Below, piece by piece: positions 34,030-44,365 of a stretch of 64,000 bases of DNA. Below the pieces are notes generated by a model. It ran no database searches, was not told the origin of the DNA, and worked only from the letters and a program-made list of their open reading frames with translations. The stretch is from Nitrosopumilaceae archaeon (GTDB lineage: Archaea > Thermoproteota > Nitrososphaeria > Nitrososphaerales > Nitrosopumilaceae). The position numbers were made by a program, and so were the translations under genes. Position 1 is the stretch's first letter, and each line of letters opens with the position of its first letter. Location: contig JAHELB010000003.1 in assembly GCA_024644385.1 (NCBI GenBank), positions 4,223-68,222 of the forward strand. The letters are read 5' to 3'.

Positions 34030-34090
34030 AAATTTGCTCCAAGACTACAAGTATTAAACCATTATACGTCTAACAAGAGGATGTTAATCA

Positions 34091-35233: not shown

Positions 35234-35823
35234 GCTGTATATCCAAGACAAACAATGTATAGCTCACTACTTTGTTTTCTGCTTGCCGGAGGTTTCGTGA
35301 GATTTATTCGAGCAAATTTTTTCTTCAAAAAATCTCTAAACTCCATCGAATATTCCCCATCAAATATTTTAAAGACAGCATTTCCTTTATGTATCAGTAC
35401 TTTGTCCATAATTTTTGTGCATGAATAATTTAGTGAGATTTGTTTGGCGTGGTCAACTGTCCAATTTCCTGAAACCTGAGGAGAAAGGTCACAAATTACT
35501 GCATTAACCTTTCTACCAAAATATTCAAGTATTTCATCAACCATAGATTCGTCTTCAATATTACCACGAACTATGCTCGCACCAGGAATTTCTTCGACGT
35601 ATGATAAATCAATTCCCATCACTTTTCCCTTGTTTCCTGCAAGTTTTACTGCCATTTGGGTCCATCCCCCTGGAGCACAACCGAGATCAAGTACATAAAA
35701 GCCAGGTCCTATAAGACGATATGATTGATTTAGTTCTTTGAGTTTGTATGCAGCTCTGCTACGGAACCCCTGCTCATGGGCCAGATTTCTATAATAGTCG
35801 CGCCTCGCGTCTCGTAATCTCAT
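35230..35823 (-). CDS. rlmE: 23S rRNA 2'-O-ribose methyltransferase RlmE/FtsJ
   Basis: GFRSRAAYKLKEL...VLDLGCAPGGWTQ...VICDLSP. Confidence 0.9.
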   Translation of the reverse strand: MRLRDARRDYYRNLAHEQGFRSRAAYKLKELNQSYRLIGPGFYVLDLGCAPGGWTQMAVKLAGNKGKVMGIDLSYVEEIPGASIVRGNIEDESMVDEILEYFGRKVNAVICDLSPQVSGNWTVDHAKQISLNYSCTKIMDKVLIHKGNAVFKIFDGEYSMEFRDFLKKKFARINLTKPPASRKQSSELYIVCLGYTA

Positions 35824-36620
35824 TTCGATTTAACTGGTTTTTTAATTTCCGCTATTACCCAATCTTCAATTAATTGACAGGTTCTTGGACTGATTTCTCC
35901 ATCAATGGAACATTTCTGTTCAACAGGGCATACAAGACATGGAGCATTTTCAATAGATTGAGTACTGATGGGGGTTTTCTTTAAAATTAATTTGTATGTC
36001 CAACGGCCTTTTTCAAGAATTTTTTCTCTGTATATTGTTCCCATTCTTTCTAGTTTTAATGCAAGACGTGAACCATCTCTACTAGTAAGCTTTAGTTTTT
36101 TCCAGAGTTCACTTTGGAACATTCCTTCAGATTCTTTTTCGGCTAAAATATCACAAACTCTTGCTGTCAATCTTTCCATATCGACTTTTTCTATTTGAAA
36201 GTTTTCAATTTCGTTATCTGATAATTGTTCTTCTAATTCTTCCTCTAAAGTTTTTTCTTCCTCTCGTTTAATTTCTGCTAATTCTTTCTTTGTTAATTTT
36301 TTTGGTTTTACTGGTTTTTCTTCTGTTTTCTTTGTGGCCTTTTTAGTTTTGGTTGGTTTTTCTTCTGTTTTCTTTGTGGCCTTTTTAGTTTTGGTTGGTT
36401 TTTCTTCTGTTTTCTTTGTGGCCTTTTTAGTTTTGGTTGGTTTTTCTTTTATTTTCTTTGTGGCCTTTTTAGTTTTGGTTGGTTTTTCTTTTATTTTCTT
36501 TGTGGCCTTTTTAGTTTTGGTTGGTTTATTTGCAAGAATTTTAGATTTTTTCTTTAAGTCATCAATTTCTGCTTTGATTTTTGCGGCTTCTTCAATTAAA
36601 GTATCTTTTTTCTTTACCAT
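35820..36620 (-). CDS. RPC34/TFE-beta-like winged-helix protein with a C-terminal Cys cluster and an N-terminal Lys-rich tandem-repeat extension
   Basis: The C-terminus APCLVCPVEQKCSIDGEISPRTCQLIEDWV fits the PCxxCPxxxxCxxxGxISPxxCxYxxxW pattern of RPC34/TFE-beta. It is preceded by a wHTH-like MFQSELWKKLKLTSRDGSRLALKLERMG. The N-terminus is (E)KPTKTKKATKK(I/T)(K/E) repeated five times. Confidence 0.55.
   Translation of the reverse strand: MVKKKDTLIEEAAKIKAEIDDLKKKSKILANKPTKTKKATKKIKEKPTKTKKATKKIKEKPTKTKKATKKTEEKPTKTKKATKKTEEKPTKTKKATKKTEEKPVKPKKLTKKELAEIKREEEKTLEEELEEQLSDNEIENFQIEKVDMERLTARVCDILAEKESEGMFQSELWKKLKLTSRDGSRLALKLERMGTIYREKILEKGRWTYKLILKKTPISTQSIENAPCLVCPVEQKCSIDGEISPRTCQLIEDWVIAEIKKPVKSK
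36313..36522 (-). repeat. Five head-to-tail copies of a 42-bp coding repeat (14-aa KPTKTKKATKKxxE unit)
   Basis: Units begin at 36313, 36355, 36397, 36439 and 36481. Three are identical and two differ only in the ctgttt/ttattt segment. Degenerate partial copies flank the array. Confidence 0.95.
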
Positions 36621-36674: not shown

Positions 36675-37136
36675 CTATTTAACAGTAAATTTCTCACTTG
36701 TAGTTATACTATTCTTTTGGTTTTGGTCAAGTAGATCTACTACTAATTCATATTCTCCAGGAATACCTACCAACTCGGAAAATGATTCCTCGCTTGGAAG
36801 AAATGGGTTTTCAATATCAAAACATTGATGGAAATAGCCACTTTGAGTAATCGCATTTTCATTAGAGGCATATATGGTAATGTATAGATCCCCACATGAA
36901 AACGATGGATCCTCAACTATAACCTGAACTTGAACAGGTTCTGATATTGAATATTGCTTTTCCAATCCAATAATTTTCATATTTTCACCTTGCAATTTTT
37001 CTCCAATTGAACCTACTTGCAATAAATTTAGTTCACGTCCGGGTTCTTGAAGAATGTCCATCATCACTATCGAACCAAAAATTACAGAAAAAACTACAGG
37101 TAAGACAAACACAACATAAGTTCCTCCCTTGACCAT
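36675..37136 (-). CDS. Membrane-anchored extracytoplasmic protein, unknown function
   Basis: N-terminal TM helix followed by a beta-rich ~110-aa domain. Confidence 0.55.
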   Translation of the reverse strand: MVKGGTYVVFVLPVVFSVIFGSIVMMDILQEPGRELNLLQVGSIGEKLQGENMKIIGLEKQYSISEPVQVQVIVEDPSFSCGDLYITIYASNENAITQSGYFHQCFDIENPFLPSEESFSELVGIPGEYELVVDLLDQNQKNSITTSEKFTVK

Positions 37137-37238
37137 TTTGATTTCTCACAGACGATTCCCCTATATCTGTTTAACAAATTTTTTGTTCAAGAGGAATTTG
37201 ACGAATGAGTTAAATCGTAGTCAACTAAGTATCGCTAG

Positions 37239-39338
37239 ATGCGACTAAGAAAATTTAGAGTTAGGGCATATCGTTGCATTCATGATTCCGGCGAAATAAC
37301 TGTAGGTGATTTGGCAGCTTTTGTTGGGAGAAATGAAAGTGGGAAAACAACAATTTTGCAAGCACTTACTTTATTGAATAAAGATGAAGTAATCTCTGAA
37401 TTGGATCTTTGCGATGAAATGTTTGAAGAACTTAAAGAAGAAATTAGATTAGCAGAGGGAGATTTTGAATTAAATCAAAGGGAAACTAATATGGTAAAGG
37501 AAAAATTTCCAAATTTACCAGAAGTCAAAAAAATTAAAATATTTAGGACAAATAAAAAACAAGAAGTCCAATATGAATTCGAAAATATAAAGATTAGTGA
37601 GAAATCAGATGGAAGTTTGAATTCTTGGGAAAATTTTTCCAAACGAATGTTAGAATTTTTGGAAACAATTCCGAATCATCTTAGAATACAAATAAATACA
37701 AAATTTTTTGAGGATCCTGCTCCAAAAAATCAATTAGAGTTTGATACAGGCCTATCCGAATTTAGTAATCAATTTCATGTTGTGGCAATACAAGATACCA
37801 AAGTAATTGAAGAATGGGAAAAAATTTATGCGAAACCAGAAAATCAATTTTCCAATTTACTTTCAGGAGGTAGCGAAAAATTAGCTTTGGAGAACTTTTT
37901 CTCTACTCAATTACATCCAAGATTTGTTTACTTTTCGGACTATAAGAAAATCTATGGGAATATCAATCTAAATGAATACATCAGGGATGAGAAAAGAGAA
38001 AGAGGAGAATCGATAGAGTATATTGAAGAATTTGACAAGGCAGAAACTGTTAGGAATCTTTTCTATTTAGCAGAATTAGACATAAATGAGCTAGAAGCCG
38101 TAAGAGATAGTCCATCAAGGTGTATCAAACTTCTCAATACAGCAAGTAATAGATTGACCAAAAAATTAAATCCTGCTTGGAAAGGAGATCCTATTCATGT
38201 TGAATTAAGATACAATCCTGGAAACATCATGAGTGTTGTTATTTCGGATGTTCACAGAGATGGAACAGTTACAAACACTGGATTGTTAAATAGAAGAGCT
38301 GAGGGTTTTAAGTGGACTTTTTCTTTTATTGTAAACTTTGCAGCAGAAACTCAAAGAGCTGAGCTTAAAGAGGCCATACTTCTTTTAGATGAGCCAGCAA
38401 GAAATCTACATCCAACTCAACAACGAGGAATTTCAGATTTACTGAAAAACCTGGCAGGTTCAAATCAAGTTTTATATGCAACACATTCTCCATTCATGAT
38501 TTTTGATTATTCTCCTGGTAATTTGTTAGTAGTAGAGTTGGACAAGAGGAAACATCTTAGTAGAATTTTTTATGATTATTGGAATGCAGATGATAAAACA
38601 CTAACACCCATACTTTATGGACTAGCAAGAGGATTAGTGGATTCTATCGTAGATAGAGAAATTGGGAGGAATTCCAGACCAGTCATTATCGTAGAAACCA
38701 TGTCTGATTCAATGTATCTAAATTCTTTTGATAAATTTCTTCAAGACCCAAACATTTCAATGAATCCATTAAATGTTGTTTCTGCTTTTAATAAAAATGC
38801 CGTATTACCACTTGCAATATTTTATAGGAACCACGGTTACAATACATTTGTTTTATTAGATAACACCGAAGAGTCAAAACAAATTTCTTCACAACTCGTT
38901 GCAAATGAATTTTCTCCTATTCAAACAATAATTTTTGAAAAAGATGGAAAACTTTTAGAGTCCATTGAAGATTATTTGGTCCTTGAAGATTATCTTTACG
39001 CAGTAAATCAAACATATGAAATTAAACTTAGACAAGAAGGATATTCCAATCTTACCCCTGAATTGGTAATTTCCAAGAAAAAGAAAGGAGTTGTGGAAGA
39101 CCTAAAGTCCATTTGGGAGGAACACAAAGACGATGATTGGAATGAATTTGATAATGAAGAGATTACTAGGTATATTTGTGAAAAAATTACCTTAGGTGAG
39201 ACCGATTTTCTTTCAGATAAAACCAAAGATCAATTTCGTTCACTCTATCGCCTTATTGCCGAACGGATACGACAATATCAAAATGCAGGCATCAGGACTG
39301 ATTTGGATAAATTTCGAAAGCCCCAAAAATCAGATTAA
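37239..39338 (+). CDS. ABC/AAA-type ATPase fused to a TOPRIM-like C-terminal module (OLD-family / AbiL / PARIS-like architecture)
   Basis: Walker A GRNESGKT (37326-37349), signature-like LNRRAEGFKWTFSF, Walker B ILLLDEP (D384/E385 at 38388-38393) and H-loop YATHSP. The C-terminal part carries VIIVETMSDSMYL (E486), FVLLDNTEE (D541) and ESIEDYL. Confidence 0.65.
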   Translation: MRLRKFRVRAYRCIHDSGEITVGDLAAFVGRNESGKTTILQALTLLNKDEVISELDLCDEMFEELKEEIRLAEGDFELNQRETNMVKEKFPNLPEVKKIKIFRTNKKQEVQYEFENIKISEKSDGSLNSWENFSKRMLEFLETIPNHLRIQINTKFFEDPAPKNQLEFDTGLSEFSNQFHVVAIQDTKVIEEWEKIYAKPENQFSNLLSGGSEKLALENFFSTQLHPRFVYFSDYKKIYGNINLNEYIRDEKRERGESIEYIEEFDKAETVRNLFYLAELDINELEAVRDSPSRCIKLLNTASNRLTKKLNPAWKGDPIHVELRYNPGNIMSVVISDVHRDGTVTNTGLLNRRAEGFKWTFSFIVNFAAETQRAELKEAILLLDEPARNLHPTQQRGISDLLKNLAGSNQVLYATHSPFMIFDYSPGNLLVVELDKRKHLSRIFYDYWNADDKTLTPILYGLARGLVDSIVDREIGRNSRPVIIVETMSDSMYLNSFDKFLQDPNISMNPLNVVSAFNKNAVLPLAIFYRNHGYNTFVLLDNTEESKQISSQLVANEFSPIQTIIFEKDGKLLESIEDYLVLEDYLYAVNQTYEIKLRQEGYSNLTPELVISKKKKGVVEDLKSIWEEHKDDDWNEFDNEEITRYICEKITLGETDFLSDKTKDQFRSLYRLIAERIRQYQNAGIRTDLDKFRKPQKSD

Positions 39339-39431
39339 TGAAGGTTTCTTATAATAGAGACTCTAATTTCAAATCTAAAAGTGAAAAATATTCAATTAAG
39401 GTTTAATTTAGAGATGGAGTGGACATTATCT

Positions 39432-41564
39432 ATGAATGAATCCTCTATGAGAGGAATTTTCCTTTCTTTATTTTTGGTGTTTACTTTAACAGTAATATTA
39501 ATTCCAATTAATGCATATGCAGCTGATTTAATTGTAGAAAGTGTTTCATATGAAAAAAGTACAATTTTAGAGATTACAAACGAAGGAGAAAAAGACGTTT
39601 ACTCCATTAGAATTTGGTTACCAGATGATTTTAATTTTGAATTTTTTAAAACTGAAAGTGGCTGGACTGGTGAACGAACACCGCAAGGTGTAATTGTTTT
39701 TTCTTCTGTCGAACCAATTAAGAATGGAGAATCTGTTAAATTTGGAGTTCAAACAAATGAATCAAAACCTGGAATAAACTGGAAGGCTTTAGATAAAGAA
39801 GGGGAACAAATAGAAATTGGAAAATCTATTGGGGATGACTGGTCTGATAAAATAAAAATCTCATCGAATACAAGTGTTATTGAAGGGATTTTAGAGAATT
39901 CCTCATTTAGAATAATACCAGAAAAACCAAACGCTGGAGGAACTATTCGAGTTACTGGAGATAATTTTGGTCTTTCACAACAATTGGACTTTTTTATCAA
40001 TACTCAAAAAATGGGATCGTTTTTTACTGATACGAGAGGTCATTTTATAACTACTTTTCAAATTCCAGATAATCAAGAAGCTGATCGAGTAGACTTTTTG
40101 GTCAAAGACAAGGTTGGAAAAGAGATCACATATAGTCTTAGATTAGGAGAACAGGGCACACAGATTCCAGAGACGGAGATTGTAAAACTTACGATCAAAG
40201 GGATCCCAGAGGTAATGTTTAGAGGAGACTTTTTGGAGATTTCAGGAACTGCACTTCCTGGAAGTGCGATAACTGCTTCAATTAAAAATCCAAATGATGA
40301 GATAATTAACACGAGAACTGCCGAAGTTAGTGCAAAGGGAACTTGGCAACTACCCGAACCAATAATTGTGCCACTTGAAGCCCCCTTTGGAAAGTATAGT
40401 GCCGAGATTTCGGATGGAAGAGAGAGTATTTTCAAGTCTTGGACGGTTGAATCCTCCAAAGTCATCGTGATAGCTCCAACCAAATTAAAATATGTTCCTG
40501 GTGAGACTTTAAAATATAACGGAACGGCCTTGCCAAACCAATCCATTGAATTGATTCTTGAGGATCCGCTAGGAAATGAGAAAGTTTCAGATATATTTAA
40601 TTTGGATAAAACAGGAATTGTAGAGTTTTCCTACCCTACAACGGCAAATATTGACAAAGAGGGAACTTGGACCTTAATAGCTACCCAGGGGAAAAATAAA
40701 GAATTAATTTATGCTGGGTTGGGAGAACTTCCATCCATCCCTGTTAATTTAGAATTTAACAAGTTAAATTACAAACCCACAGAAGATGCAATAATTTCGC
40801 TAACGGGACAACCCTCAGAAGTATTAACTTTGTTAATAATTGACCCTTCTGATAAACCAAAAGGAGACGCCATTCAAATTAAATTAGAACAAGATGGAAG
40901 GGGTATTCATACTTTGGATCTTAATGGCTATTCTTCTGGAGTTTATTCTGCCGTAGCTAGTAAGGGATCTGCTAAAAGTACTGAAATTTTCACCGTAGGT
41001 CTGCAGACAGGATCTGGTGAAATAAAAATTGGAACAACCAAATTAAGTTATGAGCCAGGAGACCCCGTTTTAATTTTAGGTGAAACTAAACCTAATACTC
41101 TTCTTGATTTAATATTATTAGACCCTGATGACAAAGAGATAAAAACAAAACTGACTTTTTCAGACAAACAAGGAAAGATTACTGAAAGTTCCTTTAGGAT
41201 TCCTTCTGAAGCAAAACCTGGAATTTGGACTATTAAAGCAACTAGTGGTTCCAATTTTTTTAATACTGAATTTGAAATAACAGCTATCCAAGCAGAGGGC
41301 CTAGCAATATCTGTGGAAGAGGGAGATATAATACCAGGTGTGGGTAAAACTATCACAATTAAAGTGGTAGGCGCCAAACATACCGTAAATATCGATATTG
41401 TCTCAAGCGATGGAGAAATAATCGAAGAATTAGCCTTCCCTGCTTCCAAGGATGGCAGAATAAATCAACCTTGGGTAATTCCTTCAGGAACTGAACCTGG
41501 CACCTATACCTTCAAGGCCGAGGATCCTTTCGATGATGCTGAAACCACTTTTATTATCAAATAA
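39432..41564 (+). CDS. Large secreted protein built from ~7 Ig/MG-like (macroglobulin-type) beta-sandwich repeats
   Basis: Signal peptide MRGIFLSLFLVFTLTVILIPINAYA. A recurring ...GxWTLxAxxG...F.V pattern appears (GTWTLIATQG, GIWTIKATSG, GTYTFKAED, GKYSAEISDG). The track start is the GTG at 39381; I prefer the ATG at 39432. Confidence 0.7.
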   Translation: MNESSMRGIFLSLFLVFTLTVILIPINAYAADLIVESVSYEKSTILEITNEGEKDVYSIRIWLPDDFNFEFFKTESGWTGERTPQGVIVFSSVEPIKNGESVKFGVQTNESKPGINWKALDKEGEQIEIGKSIGDDWSDKIKISSNTSVIEGILENSSFRIIPEKPNAGGTIRVTGDNFGLSQQLDFFINTQKMGSFFTDTRGHFITTFQIPDNQEADRVDFLVKDKVGKEITYSLRLGEQGTQIPETEIVKLTIKGIPEVMFRGDFLEISGTALPGSAITASIKNPNDEIINTRTAEVSAKGTWQLPEPIIVPLEAPFGKYSAEISDGRESIFKSWTVESSKVIVIAPTKLKYVPGETLKYNGTALPNQSIELILEDPLGNEKVSDIFNLDKTGIVEFSYPTTANIDKEGTWTLIATQGKNKELIYAGLGELPSIPVNLEFNKLNYKPTEDAIISLTGQPSEVLTLLIIDPSDKPKGDAIQIKLEQDGRGIHTLDLNGYSSGVYSAVASKGSAKSTEIFTVGLQTGSGEIKIGTTKLSYEPGDPVLILGETKPNTLLDLILLDPDDKEIKTKLTFSDKQGKITESSFRIPSEAKPGIWTIKATSGSNFFNTEFEITAIQAEGLAISVEEGDIIPGVGKTITIKVVGAKHTVNIDIVSSDGEIIEELAFPASKDGRINQPWVIPSGTEPGTYTFKAEDPFDDAETTFIIK

Positions 41565-42116: not shown

Positions 42117-42907
42117 TGGAAAGAGATGTAGAGATAGGAATTTTTGGTGGAACGGGAATTTATGACTCTGGTCTCCTTGAAAATTCTCAAGAAATAACAA
42201 TTGACACTCCATTTGGAAAACCATCGGATTCAATAACAGTGGGATTTTTCAAAGGAAGGAAAATTGCCTTTTTGCCAAGACATGGCAAAAAACATGCTAT
42301 TGCACCACACATGATAAACTATAGGGCAAACATTTGGGCTTTCAAGGAACTAGGCATCTCAAGAATTATTGCGCCATCAGCGGTAGGAAGTTTAAAAGAA
42401 GAAATTGAGCCTGGTCACTTTGCTCTACCATCGCAGTTTTTGGATTTTACTAAATCAAGAAAGGGATCCTTTTCAGAGGAGGGGCGAGTAATTCATATTT
42501 CAGTGGCAGATCCATTCTGTCCAGAATTACAAGATTCAATTAAAAAAGTGGTAAACGAACAAGGGCATAAAATTCACAATGCATGTACTTATGTATGCAT
42601 TGAGGGCCCAAGATTTTCAACCAAAGCAGAATCTAGGTTCTATAGAACAACGGGTGCAGATATTATTGGAATGACTTTAGTTCCTGAATGTCAACTTGCA
42701 AGGGAAGGGCAAATGTGTTACGCTTCAATTTCCACAGTAACTGATTATGATGTTTGGGCCGAAAAACCTGTTACTGCCAAAGAAGTACTAGAAACACTTG
42801 GGAAAAATGTTGAAAAAACAAAAAAATTATTGGTGGATTTAATAGAAAATATCCCTACAACAAGACAATGCAATTGTGTCAAAGCTTTGGAAGAAGCTGA
42901 ATTTTAG
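42116..42907 (+). CDS. mtnP: S-methyl-5'-thioadenosine phosphorylase
   Basis: GTG start. GIFGGTG, FLPRHG and [10 protein letters not shown] motifs. Confidence 0.9.
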
Positions 42908-43188
42908 TCATCAACAAAAGATTCTTTTTTTAATCCCTCTGGAAGGTTTAGATCACCGTGTAAAAGATTGTTCTGTAAGTTCATAATTATTTCATCCACA
43001 TTGTACCCAAGTGACTCTAATTCTCTTTCGGTGGATTTTGATATTTTTGCTCCAATATTTTGTCCTCCGATTCTACCAAAGGCTATCGCTGTAAATCGGA
43101 AGGAGTGATTATCAATCGTAAAATTTCCTGTAATTTTAGCAGCCATTTGACTCCCATGAACATTATTAATGTTGACTATAAGGTCCAT
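42904..43188 (-). CDS. Hypothetical 94-aa protein
   Basis: ORF only. It is the last gene of a tight three-gene minus-strand unit. Confidence 0.5.
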
Positions 43189-43196
43189 TTCAAAAA

Positions 43197-43595
43197 TTAA
43201 ATTTCAACTGCAGTATTAACGTGGTCATCAACAAGAAAACTCCAATGGTTATCATCCTCAACCTTGTAATCTTTAACATTTAATGGGATCACTTTTTCAT
43301 CAATACACTCATGTTTGAGTTCATCATTTTCTTTTATCTTTACTAATTTCCATTTGTATTTTCCTTGCTGAAGTTTACATATAGTTACAGCCCATTTTGC
43401 GTCAGGCCCAATCTTTGGCATACCTACTAAATCAGCCAGTTCTTCAATACCTAGTTGTTTTTCTTCACAAAATTTCTTTTTACAATTAGCACATCTCCAA
43501 ACATCAACGGAACCGATCGTTCTCTCGTCTATATTGATGTTAATTACTCCAAAGTATACCGGTTGATGCTTGCACGACTCTGTATCAATGTTCAA
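43197..43595 (-). CDS. Hypothetical protein with a Cys4-type zinc-ribbon-like N-terminus
   Basis: CKHQ...CANCKKKFC. Confidence 0.5.
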   Translation of the reverse strand: MNIDTESCKHQPVYFGVININIDERTIGSVDVWRCANCKKKFCEEKQLGIEELADLVGMPKIGPDAKWAVTICKLQQGKYKWKLVKIKENDELKHECIDEKVIPLNVKDYKVEDDNHWSFLVDDHVNTAVEI

Positions 43596-43617
43596 TGCTG
43601 TTCACCGATAACTTGCA

Positions 43618-43971
43618 TTATTTAGTTCTTGCATCTTCATAGGGTTTTTCAAGTATTACACCTATACTATCTACTATTTTGTTTCGTTTAAATTCGATCT
43701 TTTCTCTTTCACAAAACCGCCTATACATATTAACAGCAGTAAATCTAGGATGCATGGCCTCAAATTCTTTTTCAGAGATATCGATAAACGCACCCAAGGC
43801 CAAAAGCTCCTTTGCGGTTTTAAAGGCAAGATCCTTTGAAATATTTAGTTTTTCTGCAATTTGTTGATAACTCATTTGTCCATAGCAGGTAATTAAAAGA
43901 AAAATTTTTGCTTGAAGGGAATTTAATTTAATTTCAGAAATTAGTTTCTCCTCAATTAATGATGTATCCAT
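43618..43971 (-). CDS. TrmB-like winged-helix transcriptional regulator
   Basis: LNSLQAKIFLLITCYGQMSYQQIAEKLNISKDLAFKTAKELLALGA is a wHTH. Confidence 0.6.
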   Translation of the reverse strand: MDTSLIEEKLISEIKLNSLQAKIFLLITCYGQMSYQQIAEKLNISKDLAFKTAKELLALGAFIDISEKEFEAMHPRFTAVNMYRRFCEREKIEFKRNKIVDSIGVILEKPYEDARTK

Positions 43972-44009
43972 AAATTTGAAACAATTTTCAAATAAATAAA
44001 GGATATTTT

Positions 44010-44246
44010 TTAATCCTGTTTTTTAATAAATTTTTTTGATATTTTTAAAGAAAACCCCATGGCGATAAAATGAATGATAGCACCAACTATTATTGCCTGA
44101 AGAAGATCATTCAGAATTAGCCATGCTAAAAGAAATGAGGAGAGTGAAGGAATAATTACGAAAAGTGCGATAACGGTACTTTTAAGAAAAACTTCTTTTT
44201 TGGTTAGGTTATCTGATTTTTTTTCCTCGGACAACGGATTAGTCAT
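44010..44246 (-). CDS. Small membrane protein (2 TM)
   Basis: The track ORF reaches 44345. The internal ATG at 44246 (MTNPLSEEKK...) avoids overlap with the divergent gene. Confidence 0.45.
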   Translation of the reverse strand: MTNPLSEEKKSDNLTKKEVFLKSTVIALFVIIPSLSSFLLAWLILNDLLQAIIVGAIIHFIAMGFSLKISKKFIKKQD

Positions 44247-44365
44247 GGCATCTGACAATAAAAACCAAAGATACTTTATATTTGGTAAACACAGATTTTT
44301 TCTGTTTGGCAAGTTACAAGGGAACCTATTCCAATGAACAATCACTAAATTTTGTAATTCCTGTA

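What the first reader, a model, noticed from the sequence alone, without database searches (positions are those of the whole stretch)
37239..39338. Stand-alone ABC-ATPase fused to a TOPRIM-like module (OLD / AbiL / PARIS-like): candidate single-gene defence system
**Seen in sequence.** One 699-aa ORF carries the following motifs in order:
- Walker A GRNESGKT
- an ABC-signature-like LNRRAEGFKWTFSF
- Walker B ILLLDEP (D384/E385)
- H-loop YATHSP
- a C-terminal region with VIIVETMSDSMYL (E486), FVLLDNTEE (D541) and ESIEDYL

**Established knowledge.** This motif order is the architecture of OLD-family nucleases such as P2 Old and Gabija GajA. It is also that of the ATPase plus DUF4435-TOPRIM pairs AbiLi/AbiLii and PARIS AriA/AriB, which can occur as fusions. 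All of these are anti-phage systems.

**Inference.** The gene has no helicase or other partner. It sits with two extracytoplasmic Ig-like genes (36675-37136 and 39432-41564) in a block that interrupts housekeeping genes: rlmE and the TFE-beta-like gene on one side, apt and mtnP on the other. The second Asp of the TOPRIM DxD is replaced (D-N-T), so the chemistry may be non-canonical. I am not aware of this architecture having been characterised in ammonia-oxidising archaea.
Basis: partly seen in the sequence, partly recalled or inferred. Interest (0 to 1): 0.75.

Follow-up and report, generated by a model that had tools for sequence, protein, structure and literature searches.

The report
Core OLD-like ATPase-nuclease in marine archaea
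The gene does encode an OLD-type ATPase joined to a TOPRIM nuclease-like domain, but it is not a mobile anti-virus island: it is an intact gene kept at the same chromosomal spot, under very strong purifying selection, in every ammonia-oxidising Nitrosopumilaceae locus examined, so it looks like a defence-type enzyme recruited long ago for a cellular job.

Summary
ORF 37239-39338 (+, 699 aa) carries every motif listed, at the stated positions.

The architecture call is supported. The N-terminal part is an OLD/AAA_15 ABC-ATPase. The C-terminal part is a TOPRIM domain plus a helical bundle; its best structural matches are the C-terminal regions of OLD nucleases.

- All 81 loci from species-representative genomes and the window (81-100% identity), and the longer of 80 pelagic metagenome loci (66-71%), show the same order: fibrillarin, RNase HII, Trm1, RlmE, TFE-beta-like, [153-aa], OLD, MG2, apt, mtnP.
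- The ORF is always intact.
- dN/dS is 0.056, below RlmE, apt and mtnP.
- Its distances track the neighbouring housekeeping genes (r = 0.85).

Its nearest outside relatives (33-42% identity) are bacterial or mobile-element genes. These sit beside integrases, methylases and antitoxins, and relatives occur on viral contigs.

ATPase motifs are invariant in 166 of 166 archaeal orthologues. The TOPRIM site is remodelled but still constrained.

Best reading: an independently domesticated OLD-family enzyme, analogous to Sulfolobales Cran1. Its cellular role is inferred, not shown.

The parts
37195..37238 (+). Conserved 44-nt block directly upstream of the start codon. It contains GAGTTAAAT at about -32..-24, a TATA-like box placed for a leaderless or short-leader transcript.
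   Evidence: In 40 of 44 positions the base is at least 80% conserved across 81 loci, although synonymous sites in the gene are near saturation. There is no Rfam match and no unusual RNA fold (z = -0.15). The promoter role is inferred.
37239..39338 (+). Complete ORF of 699 aa plus stop codon: an OLD-family-like ATPase-TOPRIM protein.
37239..37598 (+). ATPase N-terminal lobe (aa 1-120), including Walker A GRNESGKT (aa 30-37, nt 37326-37349).
   Evidence: Pfam AAA_15. The Walker A motif is invariant in 166 of 166 archaeal orthologues, apart from R31 (164 of 166). pLDDT is about 90-96.
37599..38180 (+). Mostly helical insertion inside the ATPase domain (aa 121-314). It occupies the position of the dimerisation or coiled insertion of OLD, GajA and SMC-like ATPases.
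   Evidence: The AF2 model places helices at 130-225 and 268-313, with lower pLDDT. This is the least conserved part of the protein (dN/dS 0.073). A dimerisation role is inferred only.
38181..38573 (+). ATPase C-terminal lobe (aa 315-445). It holds the signature-like RRAEGF (352-357), Walker B LLLDEP (381-386, D384/E385), the D-loop His H391 and the H-loop ATHSP (H416).
   Evidence: All of these residues are invariant in 166 of 166 orthologues. The spacing from D384 to H391 and the H-loop His match the OLD catalytic residues defined for Thermus scotoductus (Ts) OLD and phage P2 OLD (PMC7049728).
38670..39038 (+). TOPRIM domain (aa 478-600). Layout: beta1 followed by E486 and D490; beta3 followed by D541-N-T543-E544-E545; then S575-I-E577-D578.
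   Evidence: - The secondary-structure order b1-a1-b2-a2-b3-a3-b4 carries E486 after b1 and D541 after b3.
- Pfam OLD-like_TOPRIM scores only 17-19 bits, below the 23.2-bit cut-off, for this protein. It matches 21 of the 26 family C-terminal regions (CTRs) scanned, that count including the window's own sub-threshold match.
- The five best Foldseek matches of the C-terminal model are OLD C-terminal regions.
- dN/dS is 0.039.
39039..39335 (+). C-terminal helical domain (aa 601-699). It includes F637-D-N639, where the wider family has a near-invariant F-x-K.
   Evidence: AF2 helices at 607-693. The model aligns over 218-241 columns with the TOPRIM-plus-helical C-terminal regions of Class 2 OLD proteins. 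The K-to-N change is shown.

Best explanation
**What it is.** The gene is an intact, vertically inherited gene held at a fixed locus in Nitrosopumilaceae. It encodes an OLD-family enzyme with three parts:
- an ABC-type ATPase containing a helical insertion,
- a TOPRIM domain,
- a C-terminal helical bundle.

**Origin.** It descends from a family of stand-alone OLD-like genes that are otherwise scattered in bacteria, prophages and mobile elements. It was captured once by an ancestor of this archaeal family and has been kept ever since.

**Likely mechanism (inferred from characterised OLD enzymes).** ATP binding and hydrolysis by the fully conserved ATPase head control a metal-dependent TOPRIM site that binds and nicks nucleic acid.
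- Metal A ligands would be E486, D541 and a relocated carboxylate at E544.
- Metal B ligands would be D490, S575 and E577.

**Likely role (inferred).** Because the gene behaves like a housekeeping gene, its present job is most probably cellular, such as chromosome or chromatin maintenance, replication, repair or cell-cycle progression. That would parallel Cran1 of Sulfolobales rather than strain-variable antiviral defence.

**Shown versus inferred.**
- Shown: architecture, synteny, intactness, selection and the active-site states.
- Inferred: enzymatic activities, substrate and cellular role.
For: **Architecture**
- AAA_15 scores 1e-25.
- PADLOC Old and GajA profiles align through the TOPRIM region.
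- The only PDB sequence match below E = 0.05 is Ts OLD, 6p74.
- The full AF2 model (pLDDT 86) is closest to Ts OLD and GajA.
- The C-terminal model (pLDDT 91) is closest to the C-terminal regions of Xanthomonas campestris pv. campestris (Xcc) and Burkholderia pseudomallei (Bp) OLD.
- 21 of the 26 family C-terminal regions scanned match Pfam OLD-like_TOPRIM, the window's own sub-threshold match included.

**Fixed, vertically inherited gene**
- 253 species-representative genomes encode a relative.
- Gene order is identical in all 80 loci fetched from them and in the longer pelagic metagenome loci.
- 81 of 81 ORFs are intact at 697-703 aa, as are all 79 further ORFs not cut by a contig end.
- dN/dS is 0.056. 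For comparison: Top6A 0.048, RlmE 0.068, mtnP 0.072, apt 0.079, and the flanking genes 0.27 and 0.34.
- Pairwise distances correlate with six concatenated neighbouring housekeeping genes at r = 0.85; 0 of 999 Mantel permutations reach this.
- There is no compositional anomaly.
- Variable insertions occur elsewhere in the region but never at this gene.

**Contrast with the wider family**
- The nearest outside relatives are only 33-42% identical.
- The three bacterial relatives whose contexts were read lie beside a phage integrase, in a methylase/Vsr/helicase island, or beside a Phd antitoxin.
- The closest archaeal relative lies beside MJECL32/33-like genes.
- 48 viral contigs carry relatives (best local segments 22-47% identical; full-length matches about 22-27%) and none carries the archaeal clade.

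**Still functional**
- ATPase motifs are invariant in 166 of 166 orthologues.
- TOPRIM dN/dS is 0.039.
- 157 of 166 orthologues keep three acidic residues in aa 541-545.

**Precedent**
- Cran1 is a vertically inherited OLD ATPase-nickase whose gene could not be deleted, with a cell-cycle role. It has a non-canonical LxD motif (PMC12796447).
Against: - No experiment bears on this protein, and no expression or phenotype data were found.
- Every locus was retrieved through the gene itself. Absence from some Nitrosopumilaceae genomes has therefore not been tested without bias.
- The comparison genes are linked to it, so co-divergence shows inheritance of the region, not of the gene alone.
- Several residues that are near-invariant in the wider family are changed in the window's clade: G487T, G518N, D/E543T/S, D/E575S and K639N. 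Nuclease chemistry may therefore be weakened, altered or lost.
- Similarity to Cran1 is only at motif level, so the functional analogy is not based on homology.
- A conserved chromosomal OLD gene could still act in defence.
Confidence: 0.55

Rival explanations
1. It is a chromosomally fixed antiviral or abortive-infection OLD enzyme. It would still act in defence, for example by sensing a virus-induced change and nicking DNA or cutting tRNA, but it has become a permanent part of the Nitrosopumilaceae genome.
For: - Most characterised bacterial and phage OLD proteins act in defence. This includes stand-alone Class 1 enzymes in Vibrio cholerae and E. coli YbjD (abstracts).
- The wider family sits in defence-like and mobile contexts.
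- PADLOC profiles for Old, GajA and AriA are the best matches.
Against: - From established knowledge, defence genes normally show patchy presence, changing context and faster evolution.
- Here the locus is fixed in every locus long enough to judge, across two clades.
- dN/dS is lower than for RlmE, apt and mtnP.
- No copy of the archaeal clade is on viral contigs.
- In Sulfolobales, the one archaeal OLD protein with this evolutionary pattern gave no sign of a defence role (PMC12796447).
Confidence: 0.28
2. It is an ATPase-driven DNA-binding or clamp protein whose TOPRIM domain no longer cuts. The conserved function would be ATP-dependent engagement of DNA, as in RecF, SMC or Rad50, with the TOPRIM domain acting as a metal- or DNA-binding module.
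For: - ATPase motifs are absolutely invariant, while the canonical TOPRIM residues G487, D/E543, D/E575 and K639 are replaced in the window's clade. D541 itself is replaced in another sub-clade, which reads LLADS.
- The E. coli YbjD phenotypes need the ATPase domain but not the Toprim domain (abstract).
- Foldseek also finds SMC, Rad50 and cohesin heads.
Against: - E486, D490, E577 and D578 are invariant, and a third carboxylate is kept near D541 in 157 of 166 orthologues.
- TOPRIM dN/dS is as low as that of the ATPase core.
- Ts OLD uses S-x-E and Cran1 uses L-x-D, and both are active.
Confidence: 0.12
3. One reading: a stand-alone, horizontally mobile single-gene defence system that forms a variable block with two Ig-like genes, inserted between housekeeping genes.
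For: The OLD-type architecture and the absence of a partner gene, as in Class 1 OLD genes.
Against: - The block and both flanks are collinear in every locus long enough to judge.
- There is no compositional difference.
- Purifying selection is strong.
- The gene co-diverges with its neighbours.
- Real insertion hot spots exist nearby but never include this gene.
Confidence: 0.03

Closest known systems
Class 1 OLD nucleases (Thermus scotoductus OLD, PDB 6p74; phage P2 Old)
   Same: - It is a stand-alone gene without a helicase.
- It has an ABC-type ATPase with Walker A Lys, Walker B acid, D-loop His and H-loop His.
- Its TOPRIM domain has a Glu after beta1, an acid four residues later, and an S-x-E metal-B motif as in Ts OLD.
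- No extra helix lies between alpha3 and beta4.
- 6p74 is the best sequence match and the best whole-structure match.
   Different: - It is about 110-190 aa longer.
- It has a C-terminal helical domain that Ts OLD lacks.
- D-x-D is replaced by D-N-T/S.
- It is fixed and vertically inherited rather than sporadic.
Class 2 OLD nucleases (Burkholderia pseudomallei and Xanthomonas campestris OLD C-terminal regions, 6nk8 and 6njw; Gabija GajA)
   Same: - It has a TOPRIM domain followed by a helical domain. The five best structural matches of the C-terminal model are these proteins, with probability 0.97-1.0.
- GajA profiles align across aa 368-605.
   Different: - There is no UvrD-like helicase (GajB) next to it.
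- TM-scores are only 0.32-0.42.
- The position that is a near-invariant Lys in the wider family is Asn here. It may correspond to Bp OLD K562, but that rests on position alone.
Cran1 (SiRe_0086), Class 5 OLD ATPase-nickase of Sulfolobales
   Same: - It is an OLD-family protein confined to one archaeal lineage, conserved and vertically inherited there.
- It has a non-canonical DxD motif (LxD in Cran1).
- No link to a defence context is seen in the window's clade or the pelagic clade.
(PMC12796447.)
   Different: - Similarity is limited to the Walker A and Walker B/H-loop motifs.
- Cran1 is about 200 aa shorter and monomeric.
- The closest relatives of this protein are 33-42% identical, most of them bacterial or from mobile elements, so the recruitment was independent.
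- Cran1's activities and its resistance to deletion are measured; nothing is measured here.
PARIS AriA/AriB and AbiLi/AbiLii
   Same: An ABC ATPase of the same AAA_15 type. The AriA profile is the top PADLOC match, at 2e-24 over aa 1-421.
   Different: - That profile covers only the generic ATPase.
- No DUF4435-type TOPRIM match was found.
- The fused AriAB profile matches only weakly, at 7.6e-11, and its best-scoring stretch lies within the ATPase.
- AbiLi matches only partially and there is no AbiLii partner.

Membership tests
OLD family (ATPase + TOPRIM nucleases) | N-terminal ABC-type ATPase with Walker A Lys, Walker B acid, D-loop His and H-loop His | tested here: met
   K36, D384/E385, H391 (Walker B Asp + 7, as in P2 D299/H306) and H416 are all present. 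All are invariant in 166 of 166 orthologues.
OLD family (ATPase + TOPRIM nucleases) | C-terminal TOPRIM fold | tested here: met
   - The model shows b1-a1-b2-a2-b3-a3-b4, with the Glu after b1 and the Asp after b3.
- The top five Foldseek hits are OLD C-terminal regions.
- 21 of the 26 family C-terminal regions scanned match PF20469, the window's own match included.
- The window protein alone is below the Pfam cut-off, at 17-19 bits against 23.2.
OLD family (ATPase + TOPRIM nucleases) | Metal-A triad: Glu plus D-x-D | tested here: not met
   - E486 and D541 are present, but the second Asp is T or S in all 81 members of the window's clade.
- An acid at 544 replaces it in most of them.
- The pelagic clade keeps D-N-D.
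- Cran1, an accepted OLD enzyme, also departs from the motif, with L-x-D.
OLD family (ATPase + TOPRIM nucleases) | Metal-B ligands: an acid four residues after the Glu, plus [S/T]-x-E | tested here: met
   D490, S575 and E577 are present; D490 and E577 are invariant in all archaeal orthologues (position 575 is S in nearly all, T or A in a few). This is the same pattern as Ts OLD D381/S478/E480.
OLD family (ATPase + TOPRIM nucleases) | ATP hydrolysis and metal-dependent nicking or cleavage | not testable with these tools
   Requires purified protein.
Class 1 OLD | Single gene with no adjacent UvrD/PcrA/Rep-like helicase | tested here: met
   No helicase lies within about 4 kb upstream or 6 kb downstream in the window, or in the fetched flanks (up to 10 kb each side) of the syntenic loci.
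Class 1 OLD | No C-terminal helical domain; shorter than Class 2 | tested here: not met
   The protein is 699 aa. Helices at 607-693 form a C-terminal domain, and the best matches are Class 2 C-terminal regions (definition from PMC7049728).
Class 2 OLD / Gabija GajA | Helicase partner (GajB/UvrD-like) immediately downstream | tested here: not met
   The downstream gene is an MG2-domain protein in every locus.
PARIS (AriA/AriB or fused AriAB) | DUF4435-type TOPRIM effector, either as a partner or fused | tested here: not met
   No DUF4435 match appears in Pfam scans of the whole protein or of the C-terminal part. The AriAB profile scores only 7.6e-11, with its best-scoring stretch inside the ATPase.
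Class 5 OLD (Cran1) | Sequence membership of the Sulfolobales clade | tested here: not met
   BLASTP against Cran1 residues 1-399 aligns only the Walker A and Walker B/H-loop segments. The closest relatives lie elsewhere.
Class 5 OLD (Cran1) | Lineage-wide conservation and vertical inheritance (a shared behaviour, not membership) | tested here: met
Mobile or variable defence island gene | Patchy presence, changing neighbourhood, compositional or rate anomaly | tested here: not met
   The locus is fixed, GC is flat, dN/dS is 0.056 and the gene co-diverges with its neighbours. Presence/absence across all genomes was not tested without bias.

The most novel reading that the evidence does not exclude
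Ammonia-oxidising Nitrosopumilaceae recruited a mobile defence-type OLD ATPase-nuclease, independently of Sulfolobales, as a permanent and probably indispensable chromosome or cell-cycle factor. They then re-engineered its TOPRIM metal site. The third carboxylate moved between positions 542, 543 and 544 in different sub-lineages, and the conserved Lys was lost together with one of these moves. On this reading, turning OLD enzymes into housekeeping nickases is a recurrent theme in archaea.
Probability: 0.4. Interest if true: 0.7.

Novelty: new variant of a known kind. Interest (0 to 1): 0.55.

Why it matters
OLD-family proteins are usually read, and automatically annotated, as anti-phage defence genes. 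One archaeal exception, Cran1 in Sulfolobales, was described in late 2025.

This result would add a second, independent and much more widespread case, in one of the most abundant groups of archaea in the ocean and in soils. If it holds, it has three consequences:
- Defence-finding pipelines would over-call this gene in every Nitrosopumilaceae genome that carries it.
- A conserved, unstudied gene of ammonia oxidisers would gain a concrete, testable biochemical hypothesis.
- The natural series of active-site variants (DNDYE with Lys; DN[TS]EE without Lys; DD[STA]xE) is a ready-made experiment on how TOPRIM metal sites can be rebuilt.

Tried and rejected
- **Sequence link from the C-terminal region to solved structures.** A profile of 26 family C-terminal regions found no OLD chain in the PDB sequences. 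The TOPRIM link therefore rests on Pfam/PADLOC profiles and on structure comparison.
- **Placement among the clades of the Cran1 paper.** The held part of its dataset contains no Nitrosopumil* entry and no sequence with the family's NESGKT Walker A. No clade could be assigned. The stored file may be cut.
- **Literature on this gene in Nitrosopumilus.** Nothing was found. One paper reports different OLD nucleases on thaumarchaeal casposons.
- **An RNA element in the conserved upstream block.** There is no Rfam match and the fold is no better than shuffled sequence.
- **Viral origin of the archaeal clade.** Viral contigs carry only distant family members. Foldseek against viral models gave giant-virus "ATP-dependent endonuclease" and phage SMC/SbcC-like proteins at low TM-scores, which was not informative.
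- **MG2 or the 153-aa gene as functional partners.** Rejected. Their rates are 5-6 times higher. The MG2 gene has its own conserved promoter-like element and the 153-aa gene is transcribed divergently. In one lineage 4.8 kb is inserted between OLD and MG2. MG2 does stay adjacent in another rearranged lineage.
- **First CDS extraction.** The offset-based extraction lost most genes to indels and was replaced by ORF-based extraction.
- **Active-site geometry.** Model coordinates are not exposed, so distances could not be measured.
Full report
**1.

The window contains one ATG-initiated ORF at 37239-39338 on the + strand, 699 aa long.
- Walker A GRNESGKT (aa 30-37)
- LNRRAEGFKWTFSF (350-363)
- Walker B ILLLDEP (D384/E385)
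- YATHSP (H416)
- VETMSD (E486)
- LLDNTEE (D541)
- ESIEDYL (574-580)

Pfam gives AAA_15 at E = 1e-25 over aa 1-421 and AAA_21 at 1e-15.

**2. The protein has the OLD-family architecture**

*ATPase.*
- PADLOC's best matches are AriA (2e-24, a generic AAA_15-like profile), Old (3.5e-19) and several GajA profiles that align as far as aa 589-605.
- The only PDB sequence match below E = 0.05 is the Class 1 OLD nuclease of Thermus scotoductus (Ts), 6p74, at 3.5e-8.
- K36, D384/E385, H391 and H416 correspond to the P-loop Lys, Walker B acid, D-loop His and H-loop His. These were shown to be catalytic in Ts OLD and phage P2 OLD (PMC7049728).

*TOPRIM.*
- By sequence alone the window protein is sub-threshold for Pfam OLD-like_TOPRIM: 17-19 bits against a cut-off of 23.2.
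- The wider family has canonical motifs: VEGxTD, GG, LLDx[D/E], [D/E]xED and FxK.
- 21 of the 26 family C-terminal regions scanned match that Pfam model at E <= 0.01, with a best E of 1.7e-7; the count includes the window's own sub-threshold match.

*Structure.*
- An AlphaFold2 model built on 133 sequences has mean pLDDT 86. It shows b1-a1-b2-a2-b3-a3-b4, with E486 just after b1 and D541 just after b3, followed by a helical domain.
- Whole-model Foldseek ranks Ts OLD first (1.4e-12) and GajA next. Retron/Septu PtuA and SMC/Rad50 heads follow.
[quoted passage not shown] Probabilities are 0.97-1.0, E is 8e-4 to 5e-3, and TM-scores are only 0.32-0.42.

*Class.* The protein is OLD-like with a mixed character. 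Like Class 1 it is a single gene and has no extra helix between a3 and b4. Like Class 2 it has a C-terminal helical domain. No DUF4435 match was found, so the PARIS and AbiL comparison rests only on the ATPase.

**3. It is not a variable block**

*Retrieval.* A scan of one genome per GTDB species found relatives in 253 genomes. The best 80, at 81-98% identity, were fetched with flanks. They include Nitrosopumilus, Nitrosarchaeum and Nitrosomaritimum, among them complete chromosomes.

*Synteny.* Every locus with enough flank has the same order and orientation: Fibrillarin+, RNase HII-, Trm1+, RlmE-, TFE-beta-like-, 153-aa ORF-, OLD+, MG2+, apt+, mtnP+, three small ORFs-, a 161-aa ORF+, Top6A-. 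In four loci (L038, L044, L061, L080) the repeat-rich TFE-beta-like gene fell below the tblastn threshold.
- Spacing around the OLD gene is constant.
- Real insertions of 2-5 kb occur elsewhere in the region: between RNase HII and Trm1, between mtnP and the next ORF, and before the 161-aa ORF. None occurs at this gene.

*Intactness.* All 81 ORFs are intact, at 697-703 aa.

*Selection.* Median pairwise dN/dS (Nei-Gojobori, same method for all genes):

| Gene | dN/dS |
|---|---|
| Top6A | 0.048 |
| OLD (this gene) | 0.056 |
| RlmE | 0.068 |
| mtnP | 0.072 |
| apt | 0.079 |
| Fibrillarin | 0.15 |
| 153-aa neighbour | 0.27 |
| MG2 neighbour | 0.34 |

*Co-divergence.* Pairwise protein distances of the OLD gene correlate with those of six concatenated neighbouring housekeeping genes at r = 0.85, and 0 of 999 Mantel permutations reach this value. 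That is as good as each housekeeping gene against the others (0.73-0.90).

*A second clade.* A second set of orthologues, 66-71% identical, was fetched from marine metagenomes. It shows the same gene order, except that the fast-evolving 153-aa ORF is no longer detectable.

*Deeper lineages.* At 63-70% identity the flanks are partly rearranged.
- In one lineage an IS and four genes lie between OLD and MG2, while MG2-apt-mtnP is kept.
- In another an rve integrase lies just upstream, while OLD-MG2 adjacency is kept.

*Conclusion.* The gene was already at this locus in the common ancestor of a large part of Nitrosopumilaceae.

**4. The wider family behaves differently**

*Identity gap.* Outside the archaeal clade the next relatives drop to 33-42% identity over the full length, at 679-790 aa. 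The relatives that carry names are bacterial: Methylacidiphilales and Acidiferrales among these nearest ones, Rhizobiaceae and Mesorhizobium among the more distant ones.

*Genomic contexts of the relatives.*
- One lies beside a phage integrase.
- One lies in a DNA-methylase/Vsr/helicase/MZB island with an M78-peptidase pair.
- One lies beside a Phd antitoxin.
- The closest archaeal relative, at 38-39% identity, lies beside homologues of genes MJECL32 and MJECL33 of the Methanocaldococcus extrachromosomal element. Reading this as a mobile element is my inference from the family names.

*Viral contigs.* 48 IMG/VR contigs carry family members (best local segments 22-47% identical; full-length matches about 22-27%). 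None carries the archaeal clade.

*Other thaumarchaeal OLD genes.* Thaumarchaeal casposons carry other OLD nucleases (PMC6563490).

*Reading.* The pattern is a sporadic, mobile, defence-like family with one branch that became fixed in an archaeal lineage.

**5. What changed and what did not**

*ATPase.* Across 166 archaeal orthologues the ATPase motifs are invariant: Walker A, RRAEGF, LLLDEP, H391 and ATHSP.

*TOPRIM.* E486, D490, E577 and D578 are invariant. Several positions that are near-invariant in the wider family are replaced in the window's clade:
- G487 to T
- G518 to N/S, with K519 gained
- [D/E]575 to S
- signature Ser354 to Ala
- D/E543 to T/S
- K639 to N

*Mapping onto the OLD two-metal scheme.* In that scheme metal A is bound by the Glu and D-x-D. 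Metal B is bound by an acid four residues after the Glu and by [S/T]-x-E. A Lys or Arg completes the site (PMC7049728).
- Metal B is complete here: D490, S575 and E577.
- Metal A lacks its third ligand at position 543.

*The moving carboxylate.* 157 of 166 orthologues keep exactly three acidic residues within aa 541-545.

| Sub-lineage | Motif at 541-545 | Third acid at | Residue 639 |
|---|---|---|---|
| Pelagic clade | DNDYE | 543 | K (rarely R or Q) |
| Window's clade | DN[TS][ED]E | 544 | N (K in one sequence) |
| Smaller clade | DD[STA]xE | 542 | N, P, G or R |

I read this as relocation of the ligand rather than loss.

*Constraint.* The TOPRIM domain is as constrained as the ATPase core in the window's clade: dN/dS 0.039 against 0.047. 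So it is still doing something. Active OLD enzymes tolerate such departures: S-x-E in Ts OLD and L-x-D in Cran1.

**6. Most likely function**

*Mechanism.* By analogy with characterised OLD enzymes, the ATPase head controls a metal-dependent TOPRIM site that binds and nicks nucleic acid. The head probably dimerises through the helical insertion at aa 121-314, though this is not tested. DNA is the default substrate. RNA cannot be excluded, because P2 OLD was recently reported to cut tRNA (PMC12445682, title and abstract).

*Cellular role.* The role is inferred only from evolutionary behaviour. A gene held intact at one locus, with dN/dS below that of rRNA and tRNA modification enzymes, across lineages that include the small genomes of pelagic clades, looks like a housekeeping gene.

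*Precedent.* The one precedent is Cran1 of Sulfolobales.
- It is a vertically inherited OLD ATPase-nickase that cannot be deleted.
- It is expressed cyclically and associates with chromatin.
- It gives no virus protection (PMC12796447).

The present protein is not a Cran1 orthologue. BLASTP aligns only the Walker A and Walker B/H-loop motifs, and its closest relatives are the bacterial and mobile-element family. The recruitment would therefore be independent.

*Confidence.*

| Claim | Confidence |
|---|---|
| OLD-type architecture | about 0.9 |
| Fixed, vertically inherited gene | about 0.9 |
| Cellular rather than defence role | about 0.55 |

*Rivals.*
- A fixed defence or abortive-infection enzyme: 0.28.
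- An ATPase-driven DNA binder with a non-cutting TOPRIM domain: 0.12.
- The original mobile-island reading: 0.03.

**7. Limits**

- Every locus was found through the gene itself, so true absences were not surveyed.
- The comparison genes are linked to it.
- dS is near saturation for many pairs, so only pairs with dS 0.05-1.5 (0.05-2.0 in the per-domain analysis) were used.
- No global OLD phylogeny was computed.
- The equivalence of position 639 to Bp OLD K562 rests on position only.
- No literature on this gene in ammonia oxidisers was found in the held library.

**8. Verdict**

- The architectural inference is right.
- What is there is a new variant of a recently recognised kind, a domesticated OLD-family enzyme.
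- Interest is moderate (0.55). It extends the Cran1 idea to a globally abundant archaeal family, it flags a systematic false positive for defence annotation, and it offers a natural series of TOPRIM active-site variants. Its function remains untested.

Noticed in passing
loci L012, L014, L015, L022, L029, L050, L065, L068, L070, L080 (regions corresponding to window 34030-34090, 42907-42910 and 43971-44282): Extra DNA of 2-5 kb is inserted at three recurrent spots in the otherwise collinear region: between RNase HII and Trm1, between mtnP and the 94-aa ORF, and before the 161-aa ORF. These are the real variable sites of this neighbourhood. Their content was not examined.
   Followed up: no
window 35820-36620 (-): The 266-aa 'TFE-beta-like' protein carries five tandem copies of a Lys-rich 14-aa unit (PTKTKKATKKxxEK) ahead of a winged-helix region, which gives only a weak MarR match. 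Its length ranges from 224 to 288 aa among species, which suggests variation in repeat number.
   Followed up: partly
window 39381-41564 (+), true start probably 39432: - The MG2-domain protein (four MG2 matches) starts at a conserved ATG at 39432, not at the GTG listed by the ORF finder.
- A conserved TTAAGGTTTAA box lies about 40 nt upstream.
- It evolves fast (dN/dS 0.34).
- It still stays next to the OLD gene in a lineage where both outer flanks are rearranged (L083, L084).
   Followed up: partly
window 36675-37136 (-): The 153-aa ORF has an N-terminal hydrophobic segment and no Pfam match. It evolves fast (dN/dS 0.27; 39-88% identity among species) and is no longer detectable by tblastn in the pelagic clade.
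   Followed up: partly
window 37195-37238: The 44 nt upstream of the OLD start codon are at least 80% conserved at 40 positions across 81 loci, and include a TATA-like GAGTTAAAT. A second conserved block (ATTCCCTTATATCTATTTAGCAAAA, about 37160-37190) lies upstream of the divergent 153-aa gene. There is no Rfam match and no unusual fold.
   Followed up: partly
L082 12363-16757; L083 3067-3750: In deeper-branching relatives, a DDE transposase plus four genes lie between OLD and MG2 (on a 1.13-Mb contig). In another lineage an rve-type integrase lies directly upstream of OLD. The organisms were not identified.
   Followed up: no
L081 4188-6192: The closest archaeal relative outside the clade (P0122, 38-39% identity) lies next to homologues of MJECL33 and MJECL32, genes of the Methanocaldococcus jannaschii large extrachromosomal element. 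This hints at a plasmid-like carrier.
   Followed up: no
window 42904-43971 (-): Three small conserved ORFs of 94, 132 and 117 aa are always present in the syntenic block. No Pfam match was found for the 132-aa and 117-aa ORFs; the 94-aa ORF was not scanned. The 132-aa ORF is Cys-rich and strongly constrained (dN/dS 0.072).
   Followed up: no
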